NCBI GenBank assembly: GCA_965287045.1
Contig: OZ336875.1
Location: 41,788,001-41,852,000 of the forward strand
Reading direction: 5' to 3'
Origin: Carcharhinus amblyrhynchos
Lineage: Eukaryota
DNA: 64,000 nt
The first letter of the stretch is position 1; the number at the start of each line of letters is the position of its first letter. This document shows, piece after piece, positions 4,301-60,060 of the stretch. Position numbers and translations under genes: made by a program. The notes under the pieces are model-generated. The model had not been told where the DNA came from and made no database searches. It was given only the letters and a program-made list of their open reading frames with translations.

Positions 4301-4304
4301 GTGG

Positions 4305-4380
4305 AGTGCAGCAGGACCGACAGCCTGGCTAAAGCCCACCAGGGATCCTCCCTCCACCCGTCAGTCCGCTTCGCTTTGTG
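4305..4380 (+). other. TNNT3: Probable non-coding exon 1 of TNNT3 (5' end approximate)
   Basis: Lies ~30 nt after the TATA-like element, has no ATG and ends at GTG|gtaaga. TNNT3 has an untranslated first exon in other vertebrates. Confidence 0.55.
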
Positions 4381-8610: not shown

Positions 8611-8651
8611 ACCCAAGGGGCCCAGCTCAAAATGTCTGACACTGAAGAAGT
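8611..8651 (+). CDS. TNNT3: TNNT3 exon 2 (ATG at 8632; MSDTEEV)
   Basis: (T)n-gcag acceptor, AAAATGTCTGACACTGAAGAAGT, gtaagt donor. Confidence 0.93.
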
Positions 8652-32600: not shown

Positions 32601-35600
32601 GGATTCCATGTATGGCTTTACCAATGTCATGTACAACTTCAACTAGACATCCCAACTCCTGTATTCAATGTTCTGACCGATGAAACCAAGCATGCTGAAT
32701 GCCTTCTTCATCACTCTGTCCATCTGTGACTTCACTTTCAAGAAGGTGTTTACACGATGTTCTTTGTTCTGTAACTCTCCCCAATGTCCTACCATTAACT
32801 GAGTAAGTCCTGCCCTGGTTCAATTCACTGATAAATGATCACATAGGAATAATGCACATTTGAATGAGATACTGAACAATGACCACCACCTGTAGAACCG
32901 TTCCTAACATGGAGTCAACACCTTCAGGGAAAAAAAAAATTTAACCTGTAATGTGGCAGATTGTACTTTTTTTTCCAGAAAAAAAAGCTACAATATTTTG
33001 ATGTCATTTATGTGGTACTTTGTCTTTAATTTTGTATGAAATGGCTAATTTCATTTTTATTTTTTGTTTTGTTTTGTTTTACTACAGAGGAGGAAAAGCC
33101 AAGGATGAAGTGAGTAGCGATTTGAAGATTTATTTAACACAGGAACACTTCTAAAATGTTAATTCGCCAAAGGCTTTCATCAGCTCCATTGCTTTGTTTG
33201 GCTCTGGGACTCCAGTCATAACTCGCTGAGGAGCAGAATATTAATTGAGCCTGGGTTTTATCATTTTTCCTCTGCTCCTTTTTCTTTCCCAATAGGAGAA
33301 AGCAAAGAGAAACTCACCTGCAGGTGGTGTTGTCCTAGCACCTAAATTGTTTTGCAAAACTATAAAATGCATTGTTTTGCACTCCTGTCTAATTCTATGG
33401 AGAAACTTCTGGCTACAAATGCAACCATTGTGGGACTGGAATGTTAGAAGTTGAATATTCTGTACTGCAGCAGATTAGTAGATGACGGAGAGTGATCCAT
33501 GTATAAATTGCTGTTCAGATTTGGCAATCCCAGTAAAAGGTTAGTGGAACAATGATACTGTAATGGGCAGGAGGATAGGTAATCAGAGGATGCAGATTTA
33601 AGACGATTGCCCCATATAGGAGGCAGATGAGTAAACATTTTTATGTGGCCAGTTAAGATCCGTGTGAGAGGGTGGTGGAAGCGTACTCTTACTCAAAATG
33701 AAAACATTTACAAGGTGATGGAGAAAGAACAGAATAAATTGGGTAGGAATTTCAAAGGGCCAGTACAGGCACAATGGGGGGAATGGATGCTGCATCATTC
33801 CCTTGTTTTTGTACGATACAATCCAAAAGAAGACAATGTGAGTGTAAAATTTGCTCCTATAAGCAATCAGTTTCAGTGTTTCCAGTTTCTGTCTATGGAT
33901 TCTGCTCTTAGAGCTAAGCTCCCAGCCTGACTATGGGATGAATAGAGATAGAGGCTAGATTATTTGCACCATTCTCAAAAGTTGCAGGTTGCAGATAGAA
34001 TGACAAAATTGTAGCTCTAATTTGACAGCCCACATTGCCATCAAATGCAGTTTTTTTTTGGCATTTAGGGTCATGGCATTACCCTGTGATCTGTATGGGA
34101 ATGTATATTTAAAAAAGCTGACTGAATAAATAATGTAATCTGTATACGTTATTGCAAATCTTGCAGAGCTTGCAAACTTTCTATCCATATACCTTGCTTT
34201 CCATTGATAGAAAAACATGCCAAAAACATTGTGACAACATGTATCATTGTTCATTGCTATGTCAATATTTTCAACTTGTGCAACATGGTATCCCTGATGA
34301 TAAATATTGTTCTTTTCCTGTCCATGCCTTTCCAAGTTGTGTCTTGTTCCCCATTTCTTTTTTTTCATGAATTCCCATCTACTTCCCTCCAGCTTTTCCT
34401 CTGTGCATCTCTTTTTCTCTCACCTTCACTGTCTTTCTATTTCTCTCCTTTTCTGCCTGTCTCTCCTGTTCTGTCATGTTTTTCTCTTTTGACTCCCTCA
34501 TCATGTGTGCTATTTTCTAAATTTTCTGTTCCCCTCCCTGACCTTTCTTTCTGTGTGTCTGTGTGTGTGTTTCTCTATTCCTAATTTCCTTCTCATTCTT
34601 CTTCCCATGTGGTTCTCTCCTTCCCTTCTGCCTGCCTTATCCTTCTGTATTTACCCCCTTTCGATCCATTTGTCCCACCTCTGTTCTATCCTGGTTCTTT
34701 CCCTCTCCTCCACTTCCATTTCTGTCTTTCTATTGCTTTTTTTCTGCCCATGTGTTTCTTCTTCCCTTCTTGTCCCTTATTTCTTTGTCATCCATCTTTT
34801 GTTTGTTGCATTCTCTCTGTTGCTGTTCTCTAACTTGTGTTCCTTTCTCTTGTCATTTGTAGATATCTCTTTCTAAGTTGTTTGTCCAGGGTAATTCAGG
34901 GATCCCATTCTCTCTAATTTGAACTTTTGTTCAAAGGAACTAACCCTAATTCTCTGATGCATGTTTCCATTGAGTGTGACTCAATGCTTGGAGGGCAAGA
35001 GGTGCTAAATTTTATCCATTCTTCTACTTTGCTGTATTCACTTTCCCTTTTTGTTACCTTCCCCTGGTCAGCTTGCCATGGGAAGATTGGGGAATGAGAG
35101 GGAAGTGAGCAGTCTAGACAACTGACACGGGTCATGAGAGTTTATTGGGGTTACCACGCTACTATGGGGAACAGGAAAGAGCTGACCAGGATCATTACAA
35201 CAGTGCAAGGTGCAACAAGAGCTTTTAAGTAGTGGTGATGATAGTCCGTTGTGGCAACTGTGGAAAAAGAATGGCCCTGGAAAGGACAGTGTAATGGGTG
35301 GATAATCCACCAATATATCCACCAATGTTTAGAGTGAAAATTGCTGCAGTGTCTTTAACTGAAAAAAAATTGTGGAGGCGGATACGTGATGCAGAGCAGT
35401 AGAGATAGCGATTAGGGTATTGAAATTGAAAATGTTTCATTTCCCAGAGTGCACACAGCCTTCATCAGAGTGAAGAAGCAATTCACAGAGAAAGCTCCAA
35501 AAACTATCACAACCTGTTTACAGTTCTAGCTGTCATTAATTCTTGTTCCATTATTACAGAATGTCTGCTCCCAAAATCCCAGAGGGAGAGAAAGTTGACT

Positions 35601-38600
35601 TTGATGTGAGTACAGAGTTATCAAACAGACTATTTATTGTTCAATAAGCATGTTTTTTGTTGGTGGCTTCATGAGCTTTCGTTCTTTAATATGTAAGATC
35701 AAAGTTAGTAACAATTGTAAAATCATTAATGATGGTCATTTCTATTCCAAGTAGGATTCAATGAGGAAGTTAATCCAGAACTTTTGCTATTTTTCTCTTT
35801 TCCCAAAGTAGTCTCTTTTTCTGTTCCCATAGAGAGGTACTGAAAATCGTACAAGGTTCCAGAGGCACTGGCAATTCTCTAGAACTTATTTAAGTGGCAA
35901 TGCTTTTATGTGTGGGACCAGAAAATTAACATCAGTGCACCATATAATCATATAGCGATCACAGCTGCTTCTGGATGTACCATTCAATCATATCACAAAG
36001 TGCATTCCCAGAAAAGATACTAAGATAAGGGGGTGGGGGGAATGAATTTAACCATGACTGTGTGGTTAAGACCATTACTGCGGTACATTTGGTATAATTA
36101 GCCATTTGCTTAGTCCAAGTAGAGAAAACTACTGATGGATGTTTCCTTAGATCAGCAGATACTTGTAAATTAATGGCTCATGTACCAAGAAATGTTATCA
36201 GGGTCTGCAAAACCAGCAGGAAATTGTTGCCTTATTTCCAAAAAATTGCTTTGATGGCACATTGATCTGTGAATTTTGAATTATGTCAGATGCATACCTG
36301 GTTCAAGGTGTCCTTATCCTGTTTGATTAGTGTTTATTTAATATAATACAGCTATCACAGTTGCTCAGTCACAACTTGCACTCAGTATGATTCCTTTTAC
36401 ATCTGCATTATTTAGGATGCTGCCTCTGACTCAAACCTTATTGTATTTAGCAGAGGAATATCAGTTGGGTGAAATCATAGTTTACCCTCGCTGGCGCTGT
36501 GTCCTCCTGATTTGTATGAATCTGTTCACTTGTGCTGTATGAACTAGCTATGGATATGATATTTCTTCTACTACTCTGATGCTTCTGTGTTTGTGTAATG
36601 TTCAGGACATCCAGAAGAAGCGGCAGAACAAAGATCTGGTTGAGCTGCAAGCCCTGATTGACCTTCATTTTGAGAATAGGAAGAAGGAGGAAGAGGAACT
36701 GATTGCCCTGAAAGAGAGGATTGTGAGTGTTACATGAATATTAAAACAACAAATTGAATCCTGACCAAGGTGTGTCACCCCCATACTGTAATTATCATCT
36801 CAGACTGAATCCATGGTATTTTGCTAAGTCAGCTGTGTCACTGTGCACAGTAGAGTTGTGCTGCTGCTGTGCATTGCAACAGTAAAGATACATTCTGACT
36901 AGTAACAATGATGGAGCTATGCTCACTGTAATGAGATATCACTTACTTCTGAACCTATATGAATTGACCGTGGACATGGGGGCACCATGGTTAGCGCTGC
37001 TGCCTTACCATATCAGGGACCCGGGTTCAACTCTGCTCTCGGATCACTGTCTGTGTGGTGTCTGCATGTTCTTCTCGTGTCTGTGTAGATTTCCTCCGGA
37101 TACTCCGGTTTCCTCCCACACTCTAAAAGATATGTGGGTTAGGTTGATTGGCCATGCTAAGTTGCCCCTTAGTGTCAGGGGGACTAGCAGGGTAAATACA
37201 TAGGGTTACAGAGATAGGACTTGGGTGGGATAGTTGTCAGTGCAGGCTCGCTGGGCTGCATGGCCTCCTTCTGCACTGTAGGGATTCTATGATTCTAAAC
37301 AAGGCAAACACACTGCCACCCTTTACATATTTTTTTCTGCACTCCACAGGAGAAGCGTAGAGCTGAAAGAGCTGAACAGCAAAGAATTCGCGCTGAAAAG
37401 GAGAAGGAGCGTCAGGCCAGGCAGGCGGTAAGTCACTCAACAATAGTGGGTTTGACTTGTTCAGCTTTTCATCAACCCTACTGATACAAAATAAAGGCGC
37501 AAACTCAGACATGTCAAAAAATGTAACAAGGTGAAACCACAGCTGTCAAAACTGGGATAATGTTAGAGATGAGATTTATCATCGATAAGAAGTTGCAAAC
37601 TCATTCCCCCACCATCTCTCTGCCCTGCTAAGACACATTGTGGATCATTGTTTTAAGAGCATTAGCTGTTACCTGATGCTTCCCTCAAATGAATGTTTTT
37701 CATCTGCAAAACCTAAGACGTGTCAGAATGCACTTTTAACTGATTCACAGTGGCACAGTGGTTAGCACTGCTGCCTCATAGCGCCAGGGACCCAAGTCTG
37801 ACTCCTGGTTTGGATCACTGTCTGTGTGGAGTCTGCATGTTCTCCCCTAGGGTGCACATTCTCCACATAGGGTATCTATGTGGGTTTCCTCCAGGTGCTC
37901 CGGTTTCCTCCCACAGTCCAAAGATGTGCGGGTTACGTGGATTGACCATGCTAAATTGCCCCTTAGTGTCAGGAGGACTAGCTAGGGTAAATTCATGGGG
38001 TTATGGGAATAGGGCCTGGGTGGGATTGTGGTCACTTCAGACTCAATGGGCCAAATTGCCTCCTTCTGCACTGCAGGGATTCTATGATTCTCTGTGAATG
38101 ACTTTGGAACTTATCTGAGTGATGAAATGTGAATAAATGCAAGTTTCTTTGTCCCACTTGGGGTGGAAGTTTATCATTCTTTGATCTAACTGTCAACTTG
38201 GGCGGGAAAAGCGGTGTGTAGCCCCAGCAAGGTGATAACAAGGGGAAAGAGAAATCTCGTCGGTGTAGATGCTATCTCGGGGACTCTATTGGATTCTCTG
38301 ACCCCCAGTAGCTTTCCCAACCACCGAAAACTGGGGCAGAGAATCCCAGCCCTTGAGTTTGAAAATTTGATATGTCTCCGGTTCTGTGCTAACCTCAATT
38401 TCTTGCCCATCATATTTCATAATCTCTTATTCATTCAATAGGAGGAAAAAGCTAGACGGGAGGAGGATGATGCCAGGAGGAGGGCTGATGATGATGCCAA
38501 GAAGAAGAAGGCTCTAACCAGCATGGGTGCTCAATACAGCAGCTACCTTGCCAGGGTAAAATGCCAGCATATGTGTCAACGTGTGAATTCATGATAATAT

Positions 38601-41600
38601 AGGCCCCACATTGCCTCCTGTCACATGGGGAATGTTGAGGTCACAGCCCCTACTTTGGTTACACTGCGGCTGTCCAAAGCTCAGGCAAGGAATGGAGCTG
38701 AATATTGGCTCCATTTTTAAATTGGGATAGCCTAAAAGGTGGATGTGTTCATTCATGGGCTCCATTATTGACTATGATCAGGAGATGTGTCTCTTGGTGC
38801 TCCCTATCTTAGCTGAAAAGCATAAACATAACCCATAAACCTAGCATCCTTGGTACATACTGGGGATAGCTGTGAGCGCCAATGTCACTGGACTAGTAAT
38901 CCAGAGGCCCAGACTAATGCTCTGGAAACATGGTAGCTGGTGGAATGTAAATTAAGTTAACAAAATCTGGCAGTACAGTGGCACAGTGGTTAGCACTGCT
39001 GTCTCACAGCACCAAGGGCTCCATGTTCAATTCCGACTTTGGGTAACAAACAGTGTGGAGTTTGCATATACTCCCCGTGTCTGCGTGGGCTTCCTCTGGG
39101 TGCTCTGGTTTCCTCTCACAGAACAAAGATGTGCAGGTTAGATTGATTGGCCGTAGTAAATTGCCTGTCTTAGGTCCCGAGATGTGTAGGTTCGGGGGAT
39201 TAGTGGGATAAATACGTGGATTTATGGTGCTTGGGCCTGGGTAAGATGTTCTGTTGGAGAGTCAATGCAGATACAATGGCCAGAACTCTACCACCTCGCC
39301 TGCCATGGAATCGGTGCGAATGAGGGTCCAACAACAGAAATCTCTGTTGACCTCCAGCAGGAATTTCTGGTCTTGCCCGAGCAAGGCTGTAAAATCCCGC
39401 CCAGTGAGCCTATTGGCCTCCTTCTGTACTATAAGGATTTTATGATCTCTAATTAGGGTCTAATCATAGTAATAGTAACCATGAAATAGTTGTCGATTTT
39501 CATTAAAAACTTATCTGGTTCACTAATATCCCTACAGGGAAAGAAATCTGCTATCCTTACCTAGTTTGGCCTATATTTGACTCCAAACCCAAAGCAATGT
39601 CCTTAACTCTTAATTATCTTCTGAAATGGTCTAGTAAGCCACTCAGTTCAAGGCTAATTAGGAATGACCAAAAAATGCTGGCTTTATCAGTGACACCCAC
39701 ATAGCATGTCAGAACAAAATGATTAGGCTCATATTACACACTTGCCCAAACAACAATATTCTGACTATTAAAACAAATAACATGTTGACATATACTAACA
39801 GCATGCACAAGGAATGCTGAAGCTGAAAATACCAGGCAATTCTGGAAAGTAGAAATTGGCTCGAATAAACTCGTTGAAAAATTGGTAGAACTGTAAACTC
39901 ACTCGTGCATCCCTAAATTTTAAAATTAAAAGTCAAATTGATTTTCTTACATTTAAATTTGATTGTAAAATCAGGCTGACCAGAAGAGAGGCAAGAAGCA
40001 GACTGAAAGGGAAAAGAAGAGGAAAATCCTAGCAGAGAGGCGCAAGCCACTCAACATTGACCATCTTAATGAAGACAAGCTTAAGTGAGTACTTACAAAC
40101 GTGTCACTGTTTAATGTTTGATGAATGCATCCCTCTCTTTCGTACTTGCACTTTAAAGAAGTTAATGACCATATTAAAGGAAAATGTGTTAAGTTTTGGA
40201 CAAAGATTTTCACTGAACTCAGCTTTTGCATAACTTAATTGTTTGCATTCCCAAGACCACCATCATAATTAGTTAGTTCTCAATCAGTTTGTATCTTTAA
40301 AAATGAAACAAGATTTATATATATTCAGAAAGACAATAGTGGATCCTCATTTTATGGACTGTGTGATTATGAAGATCCACTTTCACAGATTTCATTAGAA
40401 ACACAAAAGGATTTACTGATAAGAAGAACAGTACAGCAGCCAAATGACTGCATTTAGTCCTCTATGTGTCCCCCTGAGGTAATTACCCACTCTGACTTGC
40501 AATTGGTCCCCTAAGCCAGGTGACCCTTTTCTGTTTTAATGCCCTTAAAGGGCATTCATCACAAAAATCATTGCATTTTACAGCACAGGAAGTGGTTCCT
40601 CACAGATATGCTGGGTCTCTGAAAGAGTTATCCACTTTACCTCAATTCTCTACCAAATTTAGAGGCATTAGGAAAGAAAGTATAGAGATATTGGCATGTG
40701 TGATGGGAGACATTTGGGGCCATAGTGCAGGGGTATTCAACCTGAGGTCTTGCATGGTCTGCAAAAGGAGTAGATTTTATGATTGTGGATGGCATGTTGT
40801 TGCAGTGATTAGCACTGCTACCTTGCAGTGCCAGGAACCGGGTTCAGTTCCTGACTCAGGTCACTGTGTAGAGTTTGCACATTCTCCCTTTATCTGTGTG
40901 GGTTTCCTCCAGGTGTTTCAGTTTTCTCCCACACTCCAAAGATGTGCTAAACTGCCCATTAGTGTCAGAGGTTTAGCAGGATAAATGTGCGCGGTTATGG
41001 GAATAGGATCTGGGTGGGATTGTTGTCACTGTAGGCTCCATGAGCCAAATGTACTCCTTCTGCACTGTAGGGATTCTATGATTATCCTTTTCAATTTCAA
41101 ACTTTCTTATTCAGCCTCCAATTCTGATTTTTTTTGTCTCTGATATTAACAAACTCAGGGTTTATCCCTCAGATCGGCCTTACTTTGAAACATCTTGAAA
41201 TGGATTTTGCTCTTTGAAACCACCAGAATTTGTGTGATGTAGGGATGGAAAGTAGAGGACAACTGGGCAATGATGCCTCCTGCTGCATTCCTAATCCTAA
41301 AAGCTTGATTTCCCTTTTACTCCACTGCAATTTGCTCCTCCCTCATATGTAAATGTAGTTGAGGCCTGGGGCCCGATCTAATTTCCCTCCATTCTGTCCT
41401 TCCAATACCAAGCTCTGTTTGAAGTTACCAATGTAAAACCAATACCTTGCTTTTTTAAACAATCAGGGAAAAAGCCAAGGAACTCCACGAATGGCTGTGC
41501 CACCTAGAATCTGAAAAATTTGATATGGGTGAGAAACTGAAGAGGCAGAAGTATGAGGTATGTACCCAATTTGTGAGCTGGTTCATTAAAGTTAATCATT

Positions 41601-44600
41601 TTAAAAAATTACTCATGGAGATGATGAAAGATACAGTTCCTCCTTGTTTCGATGTACATTGTTGATACTAAATACTATAACAGACTTTTTAAAACTTTTC
41701 ACTATGAGATAGGCATTGCACTTACGTGTGTTAAAAGCGAAAACACTAAATTGGAATTTAGTTGAACACATCACCTATATATTTCACTCGGTCCCTCTTG
41801 TAGCTTGTTCTCAGATTGTCAGCTCAATTCAATGCTTGAAATATACTCTTCAATTTCCAGTGCAATTGGATGAAGAATGCATACTTCAGTTGGAATGAAT
41901 GTATTTCCACTCAATAATTTGTGCTTCAATATTTTTAAATACAGTTATTTTAATCTATACCTGTAGTGCTCAGATTCACTTATGGTCCTCAGAGGATATG
42001 TTGCCTCAATGTCTCTGAGCTATTGCCCAAAGTATTCCCAATGGCACTCCTAGTTCTGAGGAAGGGTCACCTTGCTGAATGGTTAACAACTGCTTCTCTC
42101 CACAGATGCTGCAAGATCTACTGAGTGTTTTCAATATTTTCTGTTTTCAGGTCCGACTACATGATTTTGGTTTTGTGACTCTTGACAGTTTGTAACACGG
42201 ATCCATACAAATGCTAATTGATTTACACTACACAACAGACTCTTTGCTTCATGTATAAAGATTTACTTCATTGATTCTTGATTAGTAACTCCAAGCCTCC
42301 AAGCCCTTGAAGAGGTTTAGAATTCCTTTGGTTTCCAGTTAGCTGGGAGATCAGGAGTGCAGAGTCAGCGCTATAATGTATAGATGACATAATTTCTCCT
42401 GTATAGTTAATCAACTTTTGATAATAAATACAATCACTTGCTCCCATTTCTATTAAACACAAGAAATTAGGATTAATCAGTTAACAATGAATTGGTGTTT
42501 AATTTCTGACATGCGTTATTGTAGATCCTTAGAGCTGTATACATATTACTATAACAGAGTAATGTGAAACATTTTCAAGTTTTGAGGAACAATATTAAGT
42601 GAATGCTTTTACTTTATGTCTGTTGTGAATCATGGTAGATGGAGTTGAGATCACTGTGCATAAATACAGGGCTGAGAAAAGATATCTTCTAGAATTGTTA
42701 CAGTGCTGCCAGAAATTGCGTTTTGCATGGATACCAGTAATGTTACTGAACTTTTCATCGTCATTTCTCCATTTCAGATCTAGCAGTTAATAACGTTTCA
42801 AAAAGCAGTAAGTTAAACTATAAAACATCTTTAATGGACCACAGTAATCCTGTTTTAAAAGGGAATGAAATACAATTGATTAACTACTATATTTTCAAAC
42901 TTCTTGAAGAGCAAACTGTTCTTGATTACTGGAGCAGTGATTTGCCTAAGAGCAGACCCTCTGCCTATTTCTCCATGCCTGCAGTCTTCCTCTTTCCTCT
43001 TATATGGCTTGTAGGAGACTTCCACTTTCAATTTCAGGTTGTTTAACATCATCATTCTTTTCCACTCTTTTGGTCAACAGCCTTCTATTCTCCCCTCGAT
43101 TGCCTCCTTCAGCAAATTCCCTTGACTTAGTATATGGCCAATCCAACCTTGCTGCCATTTCTTGTTGACATTCATTAACAATCTTTCTTCTTCCACCATC
43201 CTGAGAATTTCTTTATTGTTCTTGTGTTCTCTCCAACTGACCTGCTCCATCCTTCTCCAGATCCATGTTTCATAACTTTCCAAATGTGGATTGTCAGCAA
43301 TTGCAATGGCATGTTCTAATATGTCTAGTAATCAGCATATCACGTGTTTAGCAGAGAATTCTTTGTTGGTCAGAAACACATGTTCGCATGTTAAAAAAGT
43401 GTGAATTGAAGAAAGGCCATTGAGCCCTTCAAGCTTGTTTCTGCAAAGCAAATACACGAGGATGAGTGGAAAAGCAAATTGCGTGGAAGGTGTGGAAAGT
43501 CTGCAGAGAGATCTGGATAGGCTGAGTGAGTGGGCGAAGCCCTGGCAGATGGAGTATAATGTTAGCAAATGTGAGGTTATCCACTTTGGTAGAAATAATA
43601 GTAGGAGGGATTAATATTTAAAAGACGAAAAGCTGCAGCATGCTACGGTGCAGAGGGACCTGGGGGTCCTTGTGCACGAGTCACAAAAACCCAATCTGCA
43701 GGTGCAGCAGGTGATCAAGAAGGCGAATGGAATGTTGGCCTTTATAGCGAGGGGGATAGAATATAAAAGCAGGGAGGTCTTGCTGCAACTGTACAGGGTA
43801 CAGGTGAGGCCGCAGCTGGAGTACCGTGTGCAGTTTTGGTCGCCGCAGCTGCGGAAGGATATATTGGCCTTGGAGGGAGTGCAGAGAAGGTTCACTAGGC
43901 TGATACTGGAGATGAGGGGCTTAGCTTATGAGGAGAGATTGAATAGACTGGGTCTGTACTCATTGGAATTTAGAAGGCTGAGGGGGGATCTTATAGAGAC
44001 ATATAAGATAATGAAGGGGATGGATAGGGTAGAGGTAGAGAGATTCTTCCCGCATAGAAAGGACAGCAGAACTGGAGTGCACAGCCTCAAGATAAGGGGG
44101 GGGCAGTTCAGATTGGAGTTGAGGAGGAACTTCTTCACTCAAAGGGTGGTGAGTCTCTGGAACTCTCTGCCCATTGAAGTGGTGGAGGCTACCTCGCTGA
44201 ATATATTTAAGTCATGGGTAGATAGGTTTCTGATAGACAAGGGAATTAAGGGTTATGGGAGAAAGCGGGAAAGTGGATCCACTTCAGATCAGCCATGATC
44301 TTGTTGAATGGTGGGGCAGGCTCGAAGGACTAGATGGCCTACTCCTGCTCCTATTTCTTATGTTCTTATGTATTCATCCTATCATGGATTCTGTGATACC
44401 CATGCCCAATGAATGATTTTAAAAAAGGATTTAGTCTCTTGCATTCATGTTCATACAAGTACTTCTTCTGCAAGAGTAAACAAGTGAAATCCCAAATAGT
44501 CATCCATTTCCTATTTCTCCTACTCCACCCTGAGCTACTGCCTTTCATAGACTGCAGCCTTGTCATCTCTGACACCACAGAAAGACTACGGAGCGAATTT

Positions 44601-47600
44601 TTCCATTCCGCCTACCACAGGAATCATAGTGGGTGAGGGGCAGACCATGGAAAAGCCCATTGGCCTTGGGTGGGATTTTCCGGTTTTGGGGTGAGCGCAG
44701 CCAGAAAATCCAGCTTTACAATGTTCAATTGAGTGCCAGATCATTTTAATCTATACTTTTATAATTTCCAACGTCTCTCCAGCCTCTTTATGAAAGACAT
44801 ACTTGCTTTTAAAATTAATTGCTTTTAAAAAGCTGGCTAACACTTTTGTTACTCTGGGGAGAAAAGGCCAAGTTATCTCATCTGACCTGAGGCTTTTTCT
44901 CCTGTTTAGTGCAGTGCTGAACTCCGAAGCACTGATTGAATAGTACTCATGGGACTCTGCCTATACTGTACTGAAGACTGAAGCAGAACAAACTAATTGA
45001 AGAATCCCAACTGGAATGTCATCTTTCAGAATTCTACATCCCCAATTGCCCTGATACAAATATGTACAAGTAGCCATTATAAATGGACGATCCCTTGGAA
45101 CATGTAGTGAACTGATATGTTGTTCTTGTTGTCATTTGGCAAAAGAAGTAGAAAGACAGAGGTGGTGTTGTGTTAAATAAAACTGAACGGCCAGAACTCT
45201 ACCATCTCACCTGCCACAGAATCGGCGCAGAGGAGGGTCCGATAACAAAAATCTCTGTTGACCACGGTCTGGAATTTCCAGCCTTGCCTGAGCGAGACTG
45301 TAAAATCTCACCCAGTTTTTCTCTAGCAATCATGGTCAAATAGGATGTCAGAACTGCCAATGAGAGATTAAAGGAGATAACAAGCCTTGTCCCAATTTAG
45401 CACAATGTTTCACACATGCTGTGAAAATGAAAACATTATTAAAACATTACTATGTCTCATAATACATACTTAATATAAGCACAGAATTGCAAATGTTTCT
45501 GTTCAGGACAATATTTTTACAGAATATTCCACGTAATTTTAAACTTGACATTTTCAAAAAGCACATTGTACAGGTTACTTCCTGACCTCATCCATGATTT
45601 TATTGTTCCACTGAAATGCATATTGCTGTATTTCTTTTAGATAACATCACTGCGTAAAAGATTGGAGCTGCTGGCTAAGTTGTAAGTACTAAACAGAGTC
45701 ATTGTTAGCGCTGCAGCTATAAGGGTCCTGCCTGAAATATGCATGGGCCGGCTGCATGGTAAGCCAAGGAACCATCAAACATCCAGAGAGGAGGTAGCAG
45801 GTAAAAATTCTGCTTAAAACCCAGGATTTTACTTTTAACTTCATCCAAGTGAAACTGACCACCCAGTGACAAAACCAATGATCCCTTTGCTATCTATTTG
45901 ACTTTATCACTACTCATTGAGTTCAAAATGCTTCTCTCTCACTTAATTTCAACAGGACTATTTTACTGATCATCTGATCAAACTGTGTTTGGCCAGTCCA
46001 TTTCATTACAAGAATGCAATTACCATTGAAAAATAATCCAATGCTAGAACCCTTTTGGATTAAGGTAATAGGTAGCACCAGCCATGGCATTATTTACCTT
46101 ACAACAGGAATTCCCTTCATTGTTCTCTAACTTATTTTAATCTTAAGTGTGCATGAAGGGAATAGACCTGGTCTTTTTCAATTTGGACAATATTCATAAA
46201 TATTGCACAATATTTGTGAAATTCTAACAATTTGCACCAGTTAAGGGACTTTTTAGTTGCTTCGAAAATATTAAACAGTTATTGTCAGGGACATCTGTTT
46301 TGTCATTATTGCGATACAAAAAGCATTTAGCAAAATTTACTTAAAATGCATTCACCCATTATTTAGGTAATAGGTCACAATTAATTATATTTAAAAATTA
46401 AAGCACCTTTTCAACAAAAAATATTTTGTTTCCTCCTAAGCCATTAGTTGTGGTGCGCTTAGTATGTGATATTTGACCCCTTTACAAAACAATAGTACAG
46501 ATGTTTTTCTTTACTCCTGCCTTGTAGATCCAATATATTTTTAAACATTTAATTGGTCTCCAGTTTAACCTGCTGCCTCTTCAAAAAGCTTTCAGGCTAG
46601 CTGCAACAGTCCAGTACAGTTCCTGAGCCAGGTCTACAGGCTGTCATAAGTCTGGAGACCTCCACTTTTCCTAGAGTGCCTTCCTGCAGGATTGAAGCAG
46701 GAACAAGAAGAAGACCCAGTAAGTGTCAGTCTTGATGTACGCAATATGCAATTTTCAAAATTTTATCTGACAGGTCACTCTGTGGCTTTCCTTGAGCACT
46801 TCCACAGGAACCAGACATTCAGCAGTTAAGTGGTCCAAACCTCCAACCGCAGGTAACTGTGTCAGTCTTCAGCGAAATGTACTAATGAGCATATGTTATT
46901 TACAGATTACTACAGCCAGAAATCGCATTGATGAACTTCAGAAGCAGTAAGTACATTGCTATCCATTTTCCCAGCAAAAGGAACATAGGCACATGTCCAT
47001 CTAATTTATCTACTGTGGACAAAGCTAACAGAAATTCAATTCAAACAGGCATGGCACAGAGCTGCAAGTGAAAATAATTTGTGCATTGATATCCGGAATT
47101 GTGATCATTCATTAATCATCTAGTGCCTGGTGGAATTCAATTTCTTTTTTATGAAATGCACACCCTAGTGTTCGAAACGTTTAAAGAAATGTCAGTCTCC
47201 ACACAACTGGGCTGGCTACCAGCAAAACCGGTCCTTCTTAATTCAAAGATTTGTTGGGGACTTAAGATAACTTGTAGATCAAACATCTTACTTGCATTAG
47301 ACCATCCTACAAACAGTAGAGACACTTAACAACCAATTCCTCCTGTCTTTTCAGTCTTGGTGATAACCTAAACTATGATTCCTTCTAGCAGTCTCAACAT
47401 GCAAAATTGGTTTAGTTTGAGAAAGTCTAGAAAGAAAAAAACTAATGCAATCAAATTTTTGAGGGACCATGTTGCTAATCTGCCAAAAAAGGCCATTTGA
47501 TCAGGTCTTGTGTCCAATAATAGTGAATGTCAGCAGAGTGCTGGAATGCTACATTTGTAATGGATATGTGTTTTTTTCAGTGTAGATTATATGATCCCTC

Positions 47601-50600
47601 TCAAAAGGCTACATTTCCCTTTTGGGGTACGAGGCAATGCAGGCAAGAAAGGTCCAGATATGATCCCTGCTCTGTCCTGAGATAACTTGGCATAATTCAC
47701 AAAGTTGTCGGGTATTACAGTTGTATCTGATGTTCTTGGGCTTGGGATGAAAGAACGCCACTGCAGTTCCTGCCTGCTATTTGGCGACAGTAATGGAAAT
47801 TTAGTAGTCATCTGTTGAGGATAGGATTGAGCACAGCTGTAATGCCCCTCAGAGTCGAATAGTCTGCCAACACTCGGCACTTAGAGTCATGTAAGGGATG
47901 GTTTAAAGTACTGCAGAACTTTGTATTTATCCGTAACTGTGTCTCTACACCTACCATCATCTTCAAGTTCCATTTCACTTTTGATACTTTATAAACAAAA
48001 ACTGGACTGGTTTGAAATCCAGTTGTATGGAAACTTCATTATCTTTAACCAAACTAAATGATTTCCTGTTTAGTTTAAATCCCATATTGACATATGACAT
48101 GCTGGTATGTTCCTTTTTGTTTAATCCCTCTTTCATTTCACTTAGTACCCTCATTTCCTCTATAGGGTATTCTCTTAACTTGTGCAGAGTACTAATTGGA
48201 TACTGAGTACTGTCTAACTTCATGTTGTCTTTATGGGGCCTGACAAACCGTGGCACAGAGCATTGTGAATAAATCCCATACACGCACTTTCTTTAAACCT
48301 TTCTCCAGTGTAATCACAGAGTGAAAGCTGCACATATACTTGTAGAAAGAACACACTTGTTTTTAGTTTACTATAACTGGATTGAACTTTTTCTTTAAAG
48401 AAAACTGTTTCTGAAAATAGGGAAGGCGAAATCTTACAGCACTTCAAAGACATTTTACATGTATTTTTGTTGCAAAGAATGAAATATTGGTAAGAATTTT
48501 AAGTCAAAGTAAGATTGTATAATCCCAAACAGTTGTTACTTGATGAGTTGTTTCTTGTGTGAATATGGTTCAGTAATTCTGTACTGATTGCTTCACAAAT
48601 TTAACTCGTTTATTCACAACTAGTGTATTAAGTCTTTAACATCTACCAGTGCAAATAGCATCCTTAAAAACCAACTTGAATAATTAAATATTTTTCTTGA
48701 GAATGAAGACTGAATATTAAAATGCATTCACCTGGAATGATGGCATGACTACAATGCCCTCTTGGATGACAATTGTCAACTGCTTGAATATGGCAAATTG
48801 GCCAAGTCTCCATAATGAAATAGTTGTTTGGAATGCTTACCAGCCAAAAATTGTTAAGTGTAACAAGGTTTAGGTTATTGGTGTATCAAAAAAAGCTGTT
48901 GACTGGACCAAGTTAGAATCAAGTCCTCTTTATGGGCCTTGTTGTTAATAATACTGTGTGGTATCATACTTTGAGCACTCACCTATTTTAAGTTGTCCAC
49001 AATGCTTTGTGCCAGGATTCTTTCATTTGTGCGACTACTTCTACTGTTTGTTCAACTACATGGTGCCCTGTCTGTGTTCATGTTGTATGATTGATGCATC
49101 ATGGATAATAACCTGCACCCAAAGATTTTGGTTAAAGATTCTTCTTAACAGTTGACACAAAGTGGGGATCTTGAGGAATCTTTTACAAACATGACCTGAA
49201 TGACAGACTCTCTGGTATTTATTGTAGTTTACAGAGCAATAAATTCCAGTGTTTAAATAAACCACCCTTGATTCCCAACAGGGATCGAACATTAGGAAAT
49301 GGGCTGGACTGCACGATACGTAAAGAAATCATTTCTTCATGAGTTAAATTAAGAAAACAATTTTGCTTTTGTTCATTTTAAAGTTATACGTGAAGTGTTT
49401 CCACAGGGATATTTCAATTGGTGCTGTACAAAATTCCTATTAGGATTATCAGAATCGCAACTAAATTGAAAGATCAACACTTATTGGGAAGATATCTGTG
49501 GTGAATCAGGACGAAGTCTTAAAGTAAGGTCCTCCTTAGTAGCACTTATTTTTACATTTAATTCCATTATGGTTTTTTTATAATACTCGGGAGATGGGCT
49601 GTAGGCCAACTCACCTGGTACTCAATGTAAGTAATTTGTTAATCTACATTAAAGGCTGCCAAGGCTAAGAATGGTATGTAAAGCATGTCTTTCTCCTTCA
49701 ATTACATATCCATGCTGGCATGCTAACTTTTAGGTTTTAGATGCAAAGAATAGCATGCAAAATTTGAAAATAAGGCTTAGAAAGAGTATTGAAGCCTAGG
49801 GTTATTCAGGTAAGTGAAATAAAAAGGATGCATGACATGCATTTTACTTTGGTCAAGTTCGACCATTCTTCAATCTGTTGAATTTCCTTTTATTATTAAT
49901 GCTCTGCCTTTCAAATGCTGCTAACACTGTGACTGTACCAGGACAAGCGGCAGGCTGGTAGGTAGCGGCTTCCCTAATCTCTGTCATCTTGCTTTCTTCC
50001 AAGATGTACAAGAAAGATTCCTAGAGTGACATTGGCATGAATGTATTTAGAAACATGGGAATAGAAATAGGCCACTCATACCGTTTGAACTGTTCTCCGT
50101 TCCACTACAGATCTCATCTGATCTATAATTTAACTCCGTCTGTGCTTTGATTCTGCAACCCATGTTACCTTTTTCTGACAACTATTGATCAATTGCAGTT
50201 TTGAAATTTTCAATTGACCTAGTATCAATTGACCTACCATTTTGAGGGGAAAGATTCCAAATTTGTACAACCCCCTGTGTCTACCCCAGAATGGTCTAGC
50301 TCTGATTTTTAAGGATCTGTCCTTTGTTTAGCACTATCCGACAAAAGGTAAGTTTATCCATTCTATCAACTCCCTTAATCAACTTAAACACTTTGATTAG
50401 ATTACCTTTTAATCTTCCCCACTCAGGAGAATACAAATCTGCCTTTGCAATCTGACCTGACAATGAAGGCCTTTTAGCATCTGTCACCTCTGACTTTCCT
50501 TTATCCCCTCCCCCCCACCCCGTCCCACCACCATCCCTACCCCACCATTTCTACTTCCCCAGAGCAATTTTTCCAAAGCCATTGGTCACAAATCAGAATT

Positions 50601-52041
50601 TACTTTGGTAATTGTGTACATTAAACCAAATCCTGTCACCCCGATGGCACAGCTCAATGGTACAACCGGGTGAATCTTTACCTGGGTAAATTAGTCATGT
50701 TAAATACTGCCACCTGGATCAACTGCAAGATAAGCCAGGATGGTGAGCAAACAAATACATGAAGAAAATTAGCATAATATAACCATAAAGGAGAAGCAAA
50801 TGTCATGCTAGCTTATTGCCTGGTAGTTAGAGTGCTAATATTAAAACCATGTATATCTGTAAAACATATACAAGTTTCACTACCCATGAGGGAGCTGTAA
50901 CACTTCTTAAAAATAAAAAAAATTATCATTTATTTCACCTTCAGCTTACGGGTAAGTACAAAAATGGCAGTGTCTGGGCCAGAAGGAATCACTGCTCATC
51001 TATTCCTGACTGATTTAAATTTAAACATTCCCACACTACTGAAGTTAACTCTGACGCTGGGGAAGGGGAGGATGTATATGAATGGTCAAGTAATTGAGAG
51101 TATTTATAACTTTGGGAACAACATAAAATGGATGAACGCAATTCAACTGCTCTAGACACATATCTCCCAATTTTAATTTTTGTTAACATCAGTGGAAATT
51201 AAAATCGCGAAAGATGTATAAAGAGCAGCTGATCTGATATTGACCATTTATCCACAGCCACCCCTTCCCCTGCAACATCACAATTAACCCCAACGCTGTG
51301 GGAACGCTTAAATTTAAATCATTTGCCATCGATGGACCAAAAGCTTGGTAGTTATTGTAAAGATTTCTGTGATAAGAAACGATTGGTTAGTCATTAATAA
51401 ATATCCCAGAGCTGCAAGACACATGTTTTCACTCTCTAGTGAGGACGGTTTTCATCAGCCCTTTCCTAGGCCATTAGAAGGATCAGTTGGCAATGGAAAT
51501 TGGTTACTCCAGTGTCACCAAAATAAAAAGCCTAATAAGAAGTGTCCAATTTTTAGTAAGGCATATCTAATAAAGCATTTAAAAATGAAGGCAACTTGTA
51601 AGTTAAAATTATAAAATATTCCCTATCCACAAACACTGCTGTGTCCAGTTGCAGAAGGCCTCATGCTCCTTCTCCAGTGCTATCCATTTGAGGACAAGGC
51701 TGGGGAAGACAGTCAGTGAGACCACCTTCACAGGTTGCCTCCAACAAGGATGCTGCTTGTTAGTGGATTGCCGAAGCAGTTTGGGACAGTCACAGCAAAG
51801 ATCCCCCAACCTATTCCCTTACATCTTCCAACAAGTCCCAGCCACAAAATACATGAGCAACAGTGGGGTTCCTTATTTATCTGGGCTTTGCATCCACAGC
51901 CTGTTTAGTTTGTCACTCAAGAGAGGGTCAATGTTTGACATTAAGATATGGAGGGTGACAACTCTTTCTCTTTTTTTGCTTGTGATCTGCAGCAGCAAGA
52001 AGGGTGCTGGCAAGGGCAAGGTTGGTGGCCGCTGGAAGTAA
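8632..52041 (+). CDS. TNNT3: Troponin T, fast skeletal muscle (spliced CDS, ~267 aa with all N-terminal exons and one of exon alpha/beta)
   Basis: Manually spliced GT-AG exons translate to MSDTEEVYE...[193 protein letters not shown]-[alpha/beta][15 protein letters not shown]. [11 protein letters not shown], the exon sizes 46/117/78/114/110/91/41 and the mutually exclusive penultimate exons are TNNT3 hallmarks. Confidence 0.96.
8835..8842 (+). CDS. TNNT3: TNNT3 8-nt microexon (phase 2 to 1; V-Y-E)
   Basis: Strong polypyrimidine tract ...ttcttttctcttcttgcag|GTATGAAG|gtaaat. An exon of length 3n+2 is needed to reach the phase-1 exons that follow. Confidence 0.8.
9350..10830 (-). mobile_element. 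Fragmented old CR1 LINE with a nested Penelope-type hairpin
   Basis: RT remnants PGPDGIYP and [15 protein letters not shown]; FKDRLEKL at the 3' end. Confidence 0.75.
9577..9780. mobile_element. Palindromic Penelope pLTR-derived element
   Basis: Arms aagaagtctcacaacacc... (9621) and ...ggtgttgtgagacttctt (9777) are inverted and match the end of the element at 11100. Confidence 0.75.
11100..12935 (-). mobile_element. Penelope-like retroelement (degenerate RT + GIY-YIG endonuclease)
   Basis: Frameshifted ORFs with [35 protein letters not shown]...LYHKPTD, and NVIYTIPC...WYIGET (GIY-YIG). Confidence 0.92.
15290..15590 (-). mobile_element. tRNA-derived shark SINE (duplicated copy at ~21250-21550)
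   Basis: Same family; predates the 5.96-kb duplication. Confidence 0.8.
16764..16769 (+). CDS. TNNT3: TNNT3 6-nt microexon A1 (EE)
   Basis: gctaac branch point, cttcag|AAGAAG|gtatgt, upstream YGCY cluster and TGCATG. Confidence 0.7.
17090..17570. repeat. Degenerate low-complexity tandem repeat (tatccc.aataatt-like), also at ~23050-23520 and ~26850-27050
   Basis: Recurrent TATCCC/CCAATAAT motifs between the A and B microexons. Confidence 0.6.
17869..17886 (+). CDS. TNNT3: TNNT3 18-nt microexon B1 (EAYAEE)
   Basis: tttcccag|AAGCGTACGCTGAAGAAG|gtatgt; symmetric phase 1; acidic peptide. Confidence 0.8.
22724..22729 (+). CDS. TNNT3: TNNT3 6-nt microexon A2 (EE), duplicate copy
   Basis: Same context as A1 in the second duplication unit; branch point reads gctaat. 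Confidence 0.62.
23824..23841 (+). CDS. TNNT3: TNNT3 18-nt microexon B2 (EAYAEE), duplicate copy
   Basis: Identical exon and splice sites to B1. Confidence 0.72.
26523..26540 (+). CDS. TNNT3: TNNT3 18-nt microexon A3 (EEIAEE)
   Basis: cattaac branch point, ttttcag|AAGAGATTGCTGAAGAAG|gtatgt. Confidence 0.82.
27338..27355 (+). CDS. TNNT3: TNNT3 18-nt microexon B3 (EVHHEE)
   Basis: cctgac branch point, ttctcccag|AAGTGCACCATGAAGAAG|gtatgt; resembles EVHEE-type TNNT3 exons. Confidence 0.85.
28658..28681 (+). CDS. TNNT3: TNNT3 24-nt exon (VYGNEDED)
   Basis: T-rich tract ...ggacag|TTTATGGAAACGAAGATGAAGACG|gtattt; phase 1 symmetric and acidic; weaker donor. Confidence 0.7.
32045..32825 (-). mobile_element. 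CR1/HER1-type LINE 3' fragment
   Basis: (tcatagag)-type tail and a CR1 RT 3' end on the reverse strand. Confidence 0.8.
33088..33109 (+). CDS. TNNT3: TNNT3 exon (EEEKPRMK)
   Basis: tacag|AGGAGGAAAAGCCAAGGATGAA|gtgagt; matches the EEKPRPK exon of TNNT3. Confidence 0.92.
34300..34880 (+). repeat. ~600-nt pyrimidine-rich low-complexity tract
   Basis: Almost purely C/T on the + strand. Confidence 0.8.
35560..35605 (+). CDS. TNNT3: TNNT3 46-nt exon ([15 protein letters not shown])
   Basis: Canonical TnT motif; tacag|...|gtgagt. Confidence 0.96.
36606..36722 (+). CDS. TNNT3: TNNT3 117-nt exon ([11 protein letters not shown]...ALKERI)
   Basis: Tropomyosin-binding T1 helix; ttcag|...|gtgagt. Confidence 0.97.
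36975..37295 (+). mobile_element. HE1-like SINE (further + copies at ~37745-38092, ~38970-39280, ~40785-41085)
   Basis: tRNA-like head and a tail ending gcactgtagggattctatgatt (the ~38970 copy is interrupted by a MITE before the tail). Confidence 0.85.
37350..37427 (+). CDS. TNNT3: TNNT3 78-nt exon ([14 protein letters not shown]...RQA)
   Basis: Canonical TnT motif; cacag|...|gtaagt. Confidence 0.97.
38442..38555 (+). CDS. TNNT3: TNNT3 114-nt exon (EEKARREE...SSYLAR)
   Basis: aatag|...|gtaaaa; [18 protein letters not shown] motif. Confidence 0.96.
38860..39710 (+). mobile_element. Older SINE interrupted by a nested HE1-like SINE and a MITE (family also at ~57080-57385 and ~59170-59355, minus strand)
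   Basis: Head gtcactggactagtaatccagagg; body resumes ~39450 with ggttcactaat...aaatctgc...cactcagttcaagg. Confidence 0.6.
39279..39403. mobile_element. Short MITE-like element (relatives at ~44589-44715, ~45189-45313, ~53415-53540, ~38200-38350)
   Basis: Shared ggccagaactctacc...aaaatcccgccc sequence with imperfect inverted ends. Confidence 0.6.
39975..40084 (+). CDS. TNNT3: TNNT3 110-nt exon ([10 protein letters not shown]...EDKL)
   Basis: atcag|...|gtgagt; [13 protein letters not shown] motif. Confidence 0.97.
41467..41557 (+). CDS. TNNT3: TNNT3 91-nt exon ([10 protein letters not shown]...KRQKYE)
   Basis: atcag|...|gtatgt; IT-arm helix. Confidence 0.96.
43060..43290 (-). mobile_element. 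RTE-clade LINE 3' fragment
   Basis: [23 protein letters not shown]...WIGHILS...[12 protein letters not shown] is typical of the RTE ORF C-terminus. Confidence 0.8.
43440..44372 (+). mobile_element. Young 5'-truncated CR1/HER1 LINE
   Basis: [24 protein letters not shown], then a 216-aa open frame (RDLGVLV...RPQLEY...[16 protein letters not shown]); (ttcttatg) tail. Confidence 0.93.
45641..45681 (+). CDS. TNNT3: TNNT3 mutually exclusive exon alpha (exon-16-like; [14 protein letters not shown])
   Basis: 41 nt, ttttag|...|gtaagt; ends LAKF like tetrapod exon 16. Confidence 0.9.
46906..46946 (+). CDS. TNNT3: TNNT3 mutually exclusive exon beta (exon-17-like; [14 protein letters not shown])
   Basis: 41 nt, tactaat branch point, tacag|...|gtaagt; resembles ITTLRSRIDQAQKH. 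Confidence 0.93.
50050..50470 (-). mobile_element. Old CR1 LINE 3' fragment
   Basis: [18 protein letters not shown] remnant. Confidence 0.65.
51993..52041 (+). CDS. TNNT3: TNNT3 last coding exon ([15 protein letters not shown])
   Basis: Canonical TnT C-terminus; TAA at 52039-52041. Confidence 0.96.
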
Positions 52042-52294: not shown

Positions 52295-52300
52295 AATAAA
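52295..52300 (+). terminator. TNNT3 polyadenylation signal
   Basis: AATAAA ~255 nt after the stop codon, followed by T-rich sequence. Confidence 0.75.
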
Positions 52301-59030: not shown

Positions 59031-59552
59031 ACCTAGGTGAAAATGAATGTTTTTTTCCTGAATAACTATTTTTGGTTCTAAAATCCTAAAAGAAGCAATT
59101 AAATGGGGGAAGCTGATCAATACCACGACAGAGTGAGGCAGCACACGTGAGGCATTGGCAGCAACTACCTTTTGTTTATTTGTTCATGGGGCTTGGGCAT
59201 CTCAGCATTCATTGCCCATCCGTAACAAACTAAGCTTTCATGAATTAGCCACATTCAAATTTCACCTTTTGACAAGGTGGGATTGTGAAACCATTCCCCA
59301 AAGCATTACTCCGGATTACTAGCCCAGTGACAATACCACCATGCCACTGCCTCTCTCATTTCAGATGTGGTCGTTTCCTTTTGTAATTGTTTTAACTTAA
59401 CTCGGTTAACATATTATCCCTCTGAAAATAAAATAAATCAACGGGGTGAAGCGGTGGGGACTGTGGGCGAGAAGTGAATAAAAGTTGGAATAATGAGCTT
59501 GAGTCACGAATGCAGGACGCCTGGGTCAAAACAAGCAACTCCGGCGGACGAA

Positions 59553-59878
59553 TTTGGGCGGTGCACCAGGTGGCGGGGCAGGGTTTGGCCGGTGCACCAG
59601 GTGGCGGGGAAGGGTTTGGCCGGTGCACCAGGTGGCGGGGAAGGGTTTGGCCGGTGCACCAGGTGGCGGGGAAGGGTTTGGCCGGTGCACCAGGTGGCGG
59701 GGAACTGTTTGGGCGGTGCACCGTTTGGCGGGGAAGTATTTGGGGGGTGCACCATATGGCGGGGAAGTGTTTGGGCGGTGCACCAGGTGGCGGGGAAGTG
59801 TTTGGGCGGTGCACCAGGTGGCGGGGAAGTGTTTGGGCGGTGCACCAGGTGGCGGGGAAGTGTTTGGGCGGTGCACCA
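59553..59878 (+). repeat. 31-bp GC-rich minisatellite, ~10.5 copies, core GCACCAGGTGGCG (CTCF-like)
   Basis: GTGCACC recurs exactly every 31 nt from 59561 to 59871. Confidence 0.95.
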
Positions 59879-59879
59879 T

Positions 59880-60060
59880 CCCCTACTCTGGGTGGGTCAG
59901 GCTGGTGCCCTTGTATTTTATTCCTGGTTCTCGGCACCGAGTCTTATGTCTGCGAAACCCAGCCTCCTGGTTGTCCTCAGCGCTGCTGCTGAAGGTAGGT
60001 CGGTTCAAACCTGCCTCTGAACTCGGAGAGGTATTAAACCCGAGTGTCTTCGCCGGTGTT
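59880..60060 (+). promoter_or_regulatory. CpG-rich promoter/first-exon-like segment of an unidentified downstream gene
   Basis: CpG-rich; donor GAAG|gtaggt at 59994/59995; good acceptor tttcccag at ~60494. Confidence 0.35.

What the first reader, a model, noticed from the sequence alone, without database searches (positions are those of the whole stretch)
59553..59878. Minisatellite made of tandem, co-oriented CTCF-like motifs just 3' of TNNT3
Seen: eight of ~10.5 31-bp units carry GCACCAGGTGGCG; two central units have mutated cores (CCGTTTGGCG, CCATATGGCG). Known: the CTCF core is CCASYAGRKGGCRS, binding is CpG-methylation sensitive, and in mammals TNNT3 lies beside MRPL23-H19-IGF2, a domain organised by clustered CTCF sites. 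Inference: a copy-number-variable, potentially methylation-sensitive insulator separating the muscle gene from its neighbour. The first base is G instead of C, and the unit also contains E-box CAGGTG and G-runs able to form G-quadruplexes.
Basis: partly seen in the sequence, partly recalled or inferred. Interest (0 to 1): 0.72.

Follow-up and report, generated by a model that had tools for sequence, protein, structure and literature searches.

The report
Promoter minisatellite with CTCF-like motifs
A short DNA repeat in a shark carries eight look-alike binding sites for the genome-folding protein CTCF, but it sits at the start of a neighbouring gene (probably GATD1), so it is best read as a promoter repeat of a kind known from mammals and not as an imprinting-type insulator.

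Summary
The array is real: 31 bp x 10.5 at 59553-59878. Eight units carry a same-strand CTCF-like site (12.3 bits with a recalled JASPAR matrix), and two central units have lost it. The eight are copies of one site, and 0.7-1.1% of shuffled units score as well.

The window is from a shark, and the array lies 7.5 kb past the TNNT3 stop. It ends 67 bp before the ATG of another gene, inside that gene's CpG island. Contigs from two RNA-like runs of relatives leave the genome at a GT donor (59995) and continue in frame. The residues resemble the start of GATD1 (recalled, not confirmed by a tool). These contigs reach into the array's last unit, and tandem units exist in three related organisms.

The core has CpA at the position where CpG methylation blocks CTCF, so the H19-ICR analogy fails. 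Best reading: a slippage-amplified promoter/5'-leader CTCF and GC-box platform, like mouse DXPas34 or the TYMS leader repeat. Binding, insulation and copy-number variation are untested.

The parts
59549..59878 (+). 31-bp minisatellite, 10 full units plus a partial one (TRF limits 59553-59878)
59560..59857 (+). Eight co-oriented CTCF-like 19-mers (starts 59560, 59591, 59622, 59653, 59684, 59777, 59808, 59839), each holding an E-box CAGGTG; spacing 31 bp = 2.95 helical turns
   Evidence: matrix recalled
59580..59704 (+). Homogeneous block A, four identical units
59704..59765 (+). Two diverged central units (4-8 differences from the others) that have lost the CTCF-like core; unit 7 holds an out-of-frame ATG (59756) and a YY1-like match (59754)
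   Evidence: YY1 consensus recalled
59766..59878 (+). Homogeneous block B, 3.65 identical units; this unit type is seen without differences in contigs of two RNA-like runs of relatives
59400..60060 (.). CpG island (661 bp, GC 0.595, CpG o/e 0.74; window o/e 0.27); both flanks are CpG-rich without the array (o/e 1.16 and 0.64)
59879..59945 (+). Unique 5' leader of the downstream gene
   Evidence: covered by the spliced contigs of X14 and X21
59946..59994 (+). First coding exon of a GATD1-like gene (16 codons MSAKPSLLVVLSAAAE plus one base)
   Evidence: loose end in two RNA-like runs; gene name from recall, synteny support
59995..60000 (+). Phase-1 splice donor GTAGGT; exon 2 was not found in the window
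8632..52041 (+). TNNT3 coding span (first ATG to stop), upstream neighbour, same strand
52295..52300 (+). AATAAA, likely TNNT3 polyadenylation signal, 7.25 kb before the array

Best explanation
The array is the core of the CpG-island promoter and 5' leader of the gene after TNNT3, most likely GATD1 (FERRY subunit Fy-5). Inferred history: a 31-bp promoter segment with one CTCF-like site and a GC box was amplified by slippage or unequal exchange, leaving two homogenised blocks around two older, decayed units. Inferred working: the island is unmethylated, and CTCF binds the core-only sites (ZF3-7) on one helical face together with GC-box factors. This keeps the promoter open and anchors its contacts; transcription starts within or at the 3' end of the array. 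Any shielding from TNNT3 enhancers would be a side effect, constitutive and not methylation-switched. Shown: position, exon, splice donor, leader overlap, motif match, tandem units in relatives. Inferred: gene name, CTCF occupancy, methylation state, function. Location about 0.95, name GATD1 about 0.9, CTCF bound in vivo about 0.6.
For: ATG 67 bp after the array, with a GTAGGT donor. In 2 of 2 RNA-like runs laid (two studies, organisms F and C) a contig ends its match at 59996 with the same 30-letter loose end, in frame without a stop, while both DNA runs continue into the intron. Those contigs begin at 59849 and 59848, exactly where 31-mers stop being unique, so they hold the last 30-31 nt of the array. 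The DNA contigs of organisms A and C also begin at 59848, and 61-nt contigs, the length of one closed 31-bp cycle, lie on the unit in both RNA-like runs. CpG island. Motif score 12.3 bits, the top site in 64 kb. GATD1 lies within TNNI-TNNT clusters in lamprey and hagfish (PMC9825255). CTCF motif conserved from lamprey to human (PMC5504073). Promoter-bound CTCF can support enhancer contacts (abstract of 10.1101/2020.03.21.001693).
Against: No binding data. The score is in the weakest 13.5% of sites sampled from the matrix, and the ZF9-11 upstream bases are absent (by inspection). About 1% of shuffled units score as well. The two decayed units are hit at the most informative motif columns; 3 of 19 motif columns and 7 of 12 other columns vary, which shows no clear selection on the motif. 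No tool confirmed the name GATD1. The runs are only guessed to be RNA, and the 61-nt contigs could come from contaminating DNA or from another locus.
Confidence: 0.45

Rival explanations
1. Same location, but the CTCF likeness is incidental: a G-rich, slippage-prone promoter minisatellite that is neutral or acts only through GC boxes and leader length.
For: 0.7-1.1% of dinucleotide shuffles score as well, and many repeats are read in a genome scan; the mismatch costs 5.2 bits; two units lost the core; block structure is typical of minisatellite turnover. GGCGGGG is invariant in 10 of 10 units, the CTCF core in only 8.
Against: 13 consecutive core positions fit the matrix, and it is the best site in the window. 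Tandem units persist in relatives 2-3% diverged, though identity of one 31-mer at that distance is unremarkable.
Confidence: 0.3
2. The main job is a constitutive, one-sided CTCF barrier that shields the GATD1-like promoter from strong TNNT3 muscle enhancers 7-50 kb upstream; copy number tunes barrier strength.
For: The array lies between TNNT3 and the next ATG; tandem CTCF sites insulate in mammalian tests (PMC7087399); skate TAD borders carry oriented CTCF motifs.
Against: The array overlaps the transcript leader. Sites are all in one orientation; by the recalled convention they face the GATD1 side, with no divergent partner of 12.3 bits in the window. Sites 31 bp apart span one point for loop extrusion.
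Confidence: 0.15
3. The functional word is the E-box CAGGTG, forming a homotypic array for MyoD/E-proteins or ZEB/Snail that acts as a TNNT3 downstream enhancer or represses GATD1.
For: CAGGTG in 8 of 10 units; a fast-muscle gene upstream; factor preferences recalled.
Against: The E-box is nested in the CTCF core, so it is no separate evidence; the element sits in a CpG-island promoter.
Confidence: 0.07
4. [quoted passage not shown]
For: Clustered, co-oriented CTCF-like sites; 21 CpG in the array, so regional methylation could still close it indirectly.
Against: CpA at core positions 2-3; the only core CpG is at 12-13, which does not block binding. Shark genome. The neighbour is a coding gene whose start does not resemble MRPL23 (recalled); 0 of 56 frames scanned between 52300 and 64000 hit any Pfam family (insensitive to short exons).
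Confidence: 0.03

Closest known systems
DXPas34 minisatellite beside the mouse Tsix major promoter
   Same: CpG-rich minisatellite with 30-34 bp monomers, described as having a CTCF site per monomer, next to a promoter, with site content varying between related species (PMC3149622 passages).
   Different: DXPas34 is rodent-specific and tied to X inactivation and a non-coding antisense gene. This array sits at a coding gene in a shark, is 326 bp long, is unrelated in origin, and has no shown binding or function.
TYMS 28-bp 5'-UTR tandem repeat (TSER)
   Same: Short GC-rich tandem repeat in a 5' leader with a factor site per unit (USF-1), where a substitution in one unit removes the site (PMC4504634 passages).
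   Different: TYMS has mostly 2-3 copies, known polymorphism and reporter effects; here 10.5 copies, a CTCF-like rather than USF site, and polymorphism untested.
H19/Igf2 imprinting control region
   Same: Several CTCF sites in repeats; the mammalian locus lies near TNNT3 (recalled).
   Different: Its methylation switch uses a CpG at core positions 2-3, which this unit lacks; different position, different neighbour gene, non-therian genome.
Promoter-proximal CTCF sites and tandem CTCF arrays (Pcdh, Igh)
   Same: CTCF at a promoter, several sites in one orientation.
   Different: Those sites are spread over kilobases and were shown by ChIP and editing; these are 31 bp apart and only predicted.

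Membership tests
CTCF binding site | Match to the core matrix above a usual threshold | tested here: met
   12.3 bits, p 1.6e-5, recalled MA0139.1 counts; threshold 8 used for skate
CTCF binding site | Upstream ZF9-11 motif (T at -12, C at -10), found in a subset of sites | tested here: not met
   By inspection of unit columns against PMC10484683: -10 is T in all units
CTCF binding site | Occupancy in vivo or in vitro | not testable with these tools
   No library type on record for the 22 runs listed
H19-ICR-type methylation-sensitive insulator | CpG at core positions 2-3 | tested here: not met
   Core reads CpA at 2-3 and CpG at 12-13
H19-ICR-type methylation-sensitive insulator | Position between IGF2 and H19 in a therian imprinted domain | tested here: not met
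   Chondrichthyan TNNT3; array at the start of a spliced coding gene. What lies beyond 64000 is unknown.
DXPas34-like CTCF minisatellite | About 30-bp CpG-rich monomers each with a CTCF-like site, next to a promoter | tested here: met
   8 of 10 full units
DXPas34-like CTCF minisatellite | Shown CTCF binding and regulatory effect | not testable with these tools
   needs ChIP and deletion
Promoter/5'-UTR VNTR (TYMS type) | Repeat lies in the promoter or leader | tested here: met
   Spliced contigs hold the last 31 (X21) and 30 (X14) nt of the array; how far the leader reaches upstream is not shown
Promoter/5'-UTR VNTR (TYMS type) | Copy number varies between alleles or individuals | not tested
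CpG island (criteria recalled: >200 bp, GC >0.5, o/e >0.6) | Length, GC, CpG o/e | tested here: met
   661 bp, 0.595, 0.74
G-quadruplex motif | Four G3+ runs with short loops | tested here: not met
   0 matches with loops up to 7 or 12 nt, 3 with loops up to 20; G4Hunter mean 1.03, max 1.8, so weak G4 potential remains
GATD1 (FERRY Fy-5, DJ-1/PfpI fold) | Sequence match of the downstream gene | tested here: inconclusive
   Only 17 codons lie in the window: PDB 0 hits, Pfam 0, 17 candidates and none at E<=10. The name rests on recalled likeness over about 27 residues, a recalled shared phase-1 intron, and cyclostome synteny.

The most novel reading that the evidence does not exclude
Cartilaginous fishes repeatedly amplify a single promoter CTCF site into a helically phased minisatellite at the start of broadly expressed genes. 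The array would work as a copy-number-tunable promoter anchor and one-sided shield against a strong tissue-specific neighbour.
Probability: 0.12. Interest if true: 0.65.

Novelty: new member of a known kind. Interest (0 to 1): 0.3.

Why it matters
If CTCF binds, the array is a natural dose series: identical sites in phase, two built-in dead units, and probably different copy numbers among sharks. It would allow a test of how site number at a promoter changes expression and insulation in a lineage with little functional genomics. If not, it is an ordinary promoter minisatellite and perhaps a useful marker. Either way the finding corrects the local gene order: the gene after shark TNNT3 here looks like GATD1, not MRPL23, which fits the GATD1-troponin linkage reported in lamprey and hagfish.

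Tried and rejected
No whole genome is held, so no genome-wide count of similar arrays. No RNA holder is listed on record among 22 runs; 4 of the 22 were laid, and the other 18 are not used as evidence. The lack of cover over most of the intron in the two RNA-like runs, and all contig depths, are not used to place the start site, rank expression or count copies.

Confirming the gene name failed: PDB (one search was in the wrong frame), Pfam, protein collection, ESM Atlas unavailable, published FERRY structure paper not held, no paper for PDDC1 + DJ-1 + superfamily, and no GATD1, MRPL23, IGF2 or PRR33 in the troponin paper's one held supplement.

A protein-coding reading of the array was rejected: the frames are open because the unit has no stop codons, and the in-frame ORF from 59493 has no Pfam match above cut-off. 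No special RNA fold: z = 0.90 and -0.12. No Rfam family in the window. No TATA or CCAAT box in 59300-60060. The sigma-70 scan is irrelevant to a vertebrate. Five mobile-element-like frames gave no Pfam hit. Earlier-findings look-ups by place, relatives and sequence were empty.

Full report
Observation. Tandem Repeats Finder gives one array at 59553-59878, period 31, 10.5 copies, 94% matches and no indels. In register from 59549 there are ten full units and a partial one. Units 2-5 are identical (block A), units 8-10 are identical (block B, two differences from A), and units 6 and 7 differ from the rest at 4-8 positions.

How CTCF-like is it? I scored the window with JASPAR MA0139.1 counts typed from recall, so scores are approximate. 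The eight intact units score 12.3 bits (uniform background, p 1.6e-5; 16.1 bits against window GC), and units 6 and 7 score -6.5 and 3.4. Outside the array 0 sites reach 12.3 bits and 4 reach 8.3. The skate genome paper mined CTCF motifs with this matrix at a score of 8 and found them oriented at TAD borders (PMC10115646, passages). The motif is nearly the same in lamprey, chicken and human (PMC5504073, passages), and shark CTCF has eleven zinc fingers (PMC7471279, passages). The site is a modest one, however. It falls in the weakest 13.5% of sites sampled from the matrix, and the G at core position 1 costs 5.2 bits. Structure softens that: Val454 of ZF7 makes no direct contact with position 1 (PMC10484683, passages). 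The upstream ZF9-11 bases named in that paper are absent. The eight copies descend from one site, so the fair null is one unit. Dinucleotide-preserving shuffles reach the score in 227 and 132 of 20000 trials, mononucleotide shuffles in 45 and 32 of 20000. Variation among units gives no sign of selection on the motif: 3 of 19 motif columns vary, all at informative positions, against 7 of 12 other columns.

Methylation. PMC10484683 states that methylation of a CpG at core positions 2-3 inhibits binding, while methylation at 12-13 slightly raises affinity. Here positions 2-3 are CpA and the only core CpG is at 12-13. The direct mechanism behind the H19 switch is therefore missing. Regional silencing of the 21 CpG in the array could still act indirectly.

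Organism and upstream gene. The upstream gene is TNNT3. One exon matches fast skeletal troponin T best (E 1.7e-16, against 1.6e-11 for cardiac) and Pfam Troponin. Its exons run from an ATG at 8632 to a stop at 52041. In the supplement of PMC9825255 (search hits only), the named skate and catshark TNNT3 rows share the window's motif LHFENRKK, and the skate row ends like the window's last exon, whereas reedfish and zebrafish end differently. The window is thus from a cartilaginous fish, most likely a shark (interspersed repeats recognised from recall). The abstract start of PMC9937046 places animal imprinting in therian mammals; a 2026 listing reports an independent origin in placental fish (search listing). 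The array lies 7,512 bp after the stop and 7.25 kb after the AATAAA at 52295.

An ATG at 59946, 67 bp after the array, opens 16 codons (MSAKPSLLVVLSAAAE) plus one base, followed by GTAGGT at 59995. The region 59400-60060 is a CpG island (GC 0.595, o/e 0.74, against 0.27 for the window), and both flanks are CpG-rich without the array. A search for sequencing runs listed 22 holders in 12 studies. I laid 4 of them on 59828-60900: two guessed to be RNA (X14, organism F; X21, organism C) and two DNA (X7, organism C; X5, organism A). In both RNA-like runs one contig matches up to 59996 and then goes on with the same 30 loose letters, while the DNA contigs run on through the intron. Read by hand in the continuing frame, the loose letters give V-S-A-H-S-F-Y-H-S-Y with no stop. 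This is a spliced coding gene on the same strand as TNNT3. Over about 27 residues it resembles the N-terminus of vertebrate GATD1 as I recall it, including the intron phase, and it does not resemble the MRPL23 start as I recall it. No tool could confirm the name from so short a piece. Independent support: GATD1 lies between the TNNI and TNNT genes of one lamprey and one hagfish cluster (PMC9825255, passages; its synteny figure could not be seen). GATD1 is Fy-5 of the FERRY complex, with a DJ-1/PfpI-like fold (10.1101/2021.06.21.449265, passages; its supplements could not be seen and might hold the sequence). Exon 2 was not found before 64000. Of 62 stop-to-stop frames of 55 aa or more between 52300 and 64000, 56 were scanned against Pfam and 0 hit; the 6 left out overlap the array. 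Whether MRPL23 and IGF2 lie further on cannot be told from this window.

The array in transcripts and relatives. The spliced contigs begin at 59849 (X14) and 59848 (X21), and the long DNA contigs of X5 and X7 begin at 59848. The first unique 31-mer of the window starts at 59849; in runs with another letter at 59878 (X21, X7, X5) it starts at 59848. So all four contigs stop exactly where a tandem repeat would branch the assembly graph. Both RNA-like runs also hold a 61-nt contig on the unit with no differences, the length of one closed 31-bp cycle. Two things follow. Tandem units are present in organisms A, C and F; the DNA contigs of A and C differ from the window at 19 of 851 and 27 of 1053 letters. 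And the leader includes at least the last 30-31 nt of the array. The 61-nt contigs suggest two or more units in RNA, but contaminating DNA or another locus could supply a multi-copy unit. Contigs cannot give the start site, strand, level or copy number, so 'VNTR' remains unproven.

How it most likely works. Shown: a minisatellite in the CpG island and leader of a GATD1-like gene. Inferred: a promoter segment with one CTCF-like site and GC boxes (GGCGGGG in 10 units, GGGCGG at 6 places) was amplified by slippage. Most start sites of intermediately and highly expressed genes are unmethylated in elephant shark (PMC5437953, passages), so the sites are probably accessible. With a 31-bp period (2.95 turns), core-bound CTCF molecules would sit on one face. 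The likely role is promoter-local: keeping the promoter open and anchoring contacts, as described for promoter-bound CTCF (abstract). By the recalled orientation convention the sites face the GATD1 side. A barrier against TNNT3 enhancers is possible, since tandem sites insulate in mammalian tests (PMC7087399, passages), but it would be constitutive. I give this reading 0.45, a neutral or GC-box-only repeat 0.30, a mainly insulating role 0.15, an E-box array 0.07 and an H19-like switch 0.03.

Comparison and novelty. The closest known element is mouse DXPas34: 30-34 bp CpG-rich monomers described with a CTCF site each, next to the Tsix promoter (PMC3149622, passages). The TYMS 28-bp leader repeat is the model for a 5'-UTR array with one factor site per unit (PMC4504634, passages). 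The element works like these at best and is homologous to neither. I saw no description of this array in the listings of searches on CTCF + minisatellite + VNTR + promoter (25 of 38 listed), TNNT3/PDDC1/GATD1/synteny (23 of 25), minisatellite/cartilaginous/CTCF/shark/GATD1 (15 of 50) and CTCF + ChIP-seq + shark (15 of 104); subscription papers are not covered. An earlier scan note (e1-7791257) describes an 11-copy CTCF-motif minisatellite upstream of XPA in a chimaera-like fish. It is unchecked and only a lead, but it suggested the DXPas34 comparison and the novel case.

Verdict. Real repeat, fair CTCF motif, wrong context. New member of a known kind; interest 0.3.

Noticed in passing
window 13528-19496 and 19489-25452: A 5.96-kb tandem duplication, 99.4% identical, inside the 5' part of TNNT3 where small alternative exons are expected: either a recent duplication or an uncollapsed haplotype in the assembly.
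   Followed up: no
window 59493-59948: An upstream ATG at 59493 is in frame with the main ATG through the whole array (151 extra codons); this depends on copy number modulo 3. No Pfam match above cut-off.
   Followed up: partly
window 59754-59992: Decayed unit 7 has gained an ATG (59756) that opens an out-of-frame ORF overlapping the main start (stop at 59990), and a YY1-like match at 59754 (consensus recalled). It could damp translation if transcripts start upstream of it.
   Followed up: partly
window 59946-59994: No substitution listed in the coding exon in any of the 4 runs laid, against 5 in the 98 nt before it in organism C; fits coding constraint but the numbers are too small to be significant.
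   Followed up: partly
window about 4000-4400 and 5500-5900: Two further CpG-rich patches upstream of the TNNT3 ATG, possible promoters or first exons.
   Followed up: no
window 62845-62950 and 63271-63381: An inverted pair of about 111 bp, 91% alike, in the first intron of the GATD1-like gene; may be the ends of a small DNA transposon.
   Followed up: no
window 17167-17341 and 23122-23296: A decayed 27-bp AT-rich minisatellite, present twice because of the duplication.
   Followed up: no
window 11518-13093 (minus) and 43615-44298 (plus): Broken frames that look like a Penelope-type retroelement and a CR1-type LINE end (recognised from recall; no Pfam hit).
   Followed up: partly
window 33314-33332 and 6837-6855: The next-best single CTCF-like sites (11.9 and 11.0 bits), both on the + strand, in a TNNT3 intron and upstream of its ATG.
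   Followed up: no
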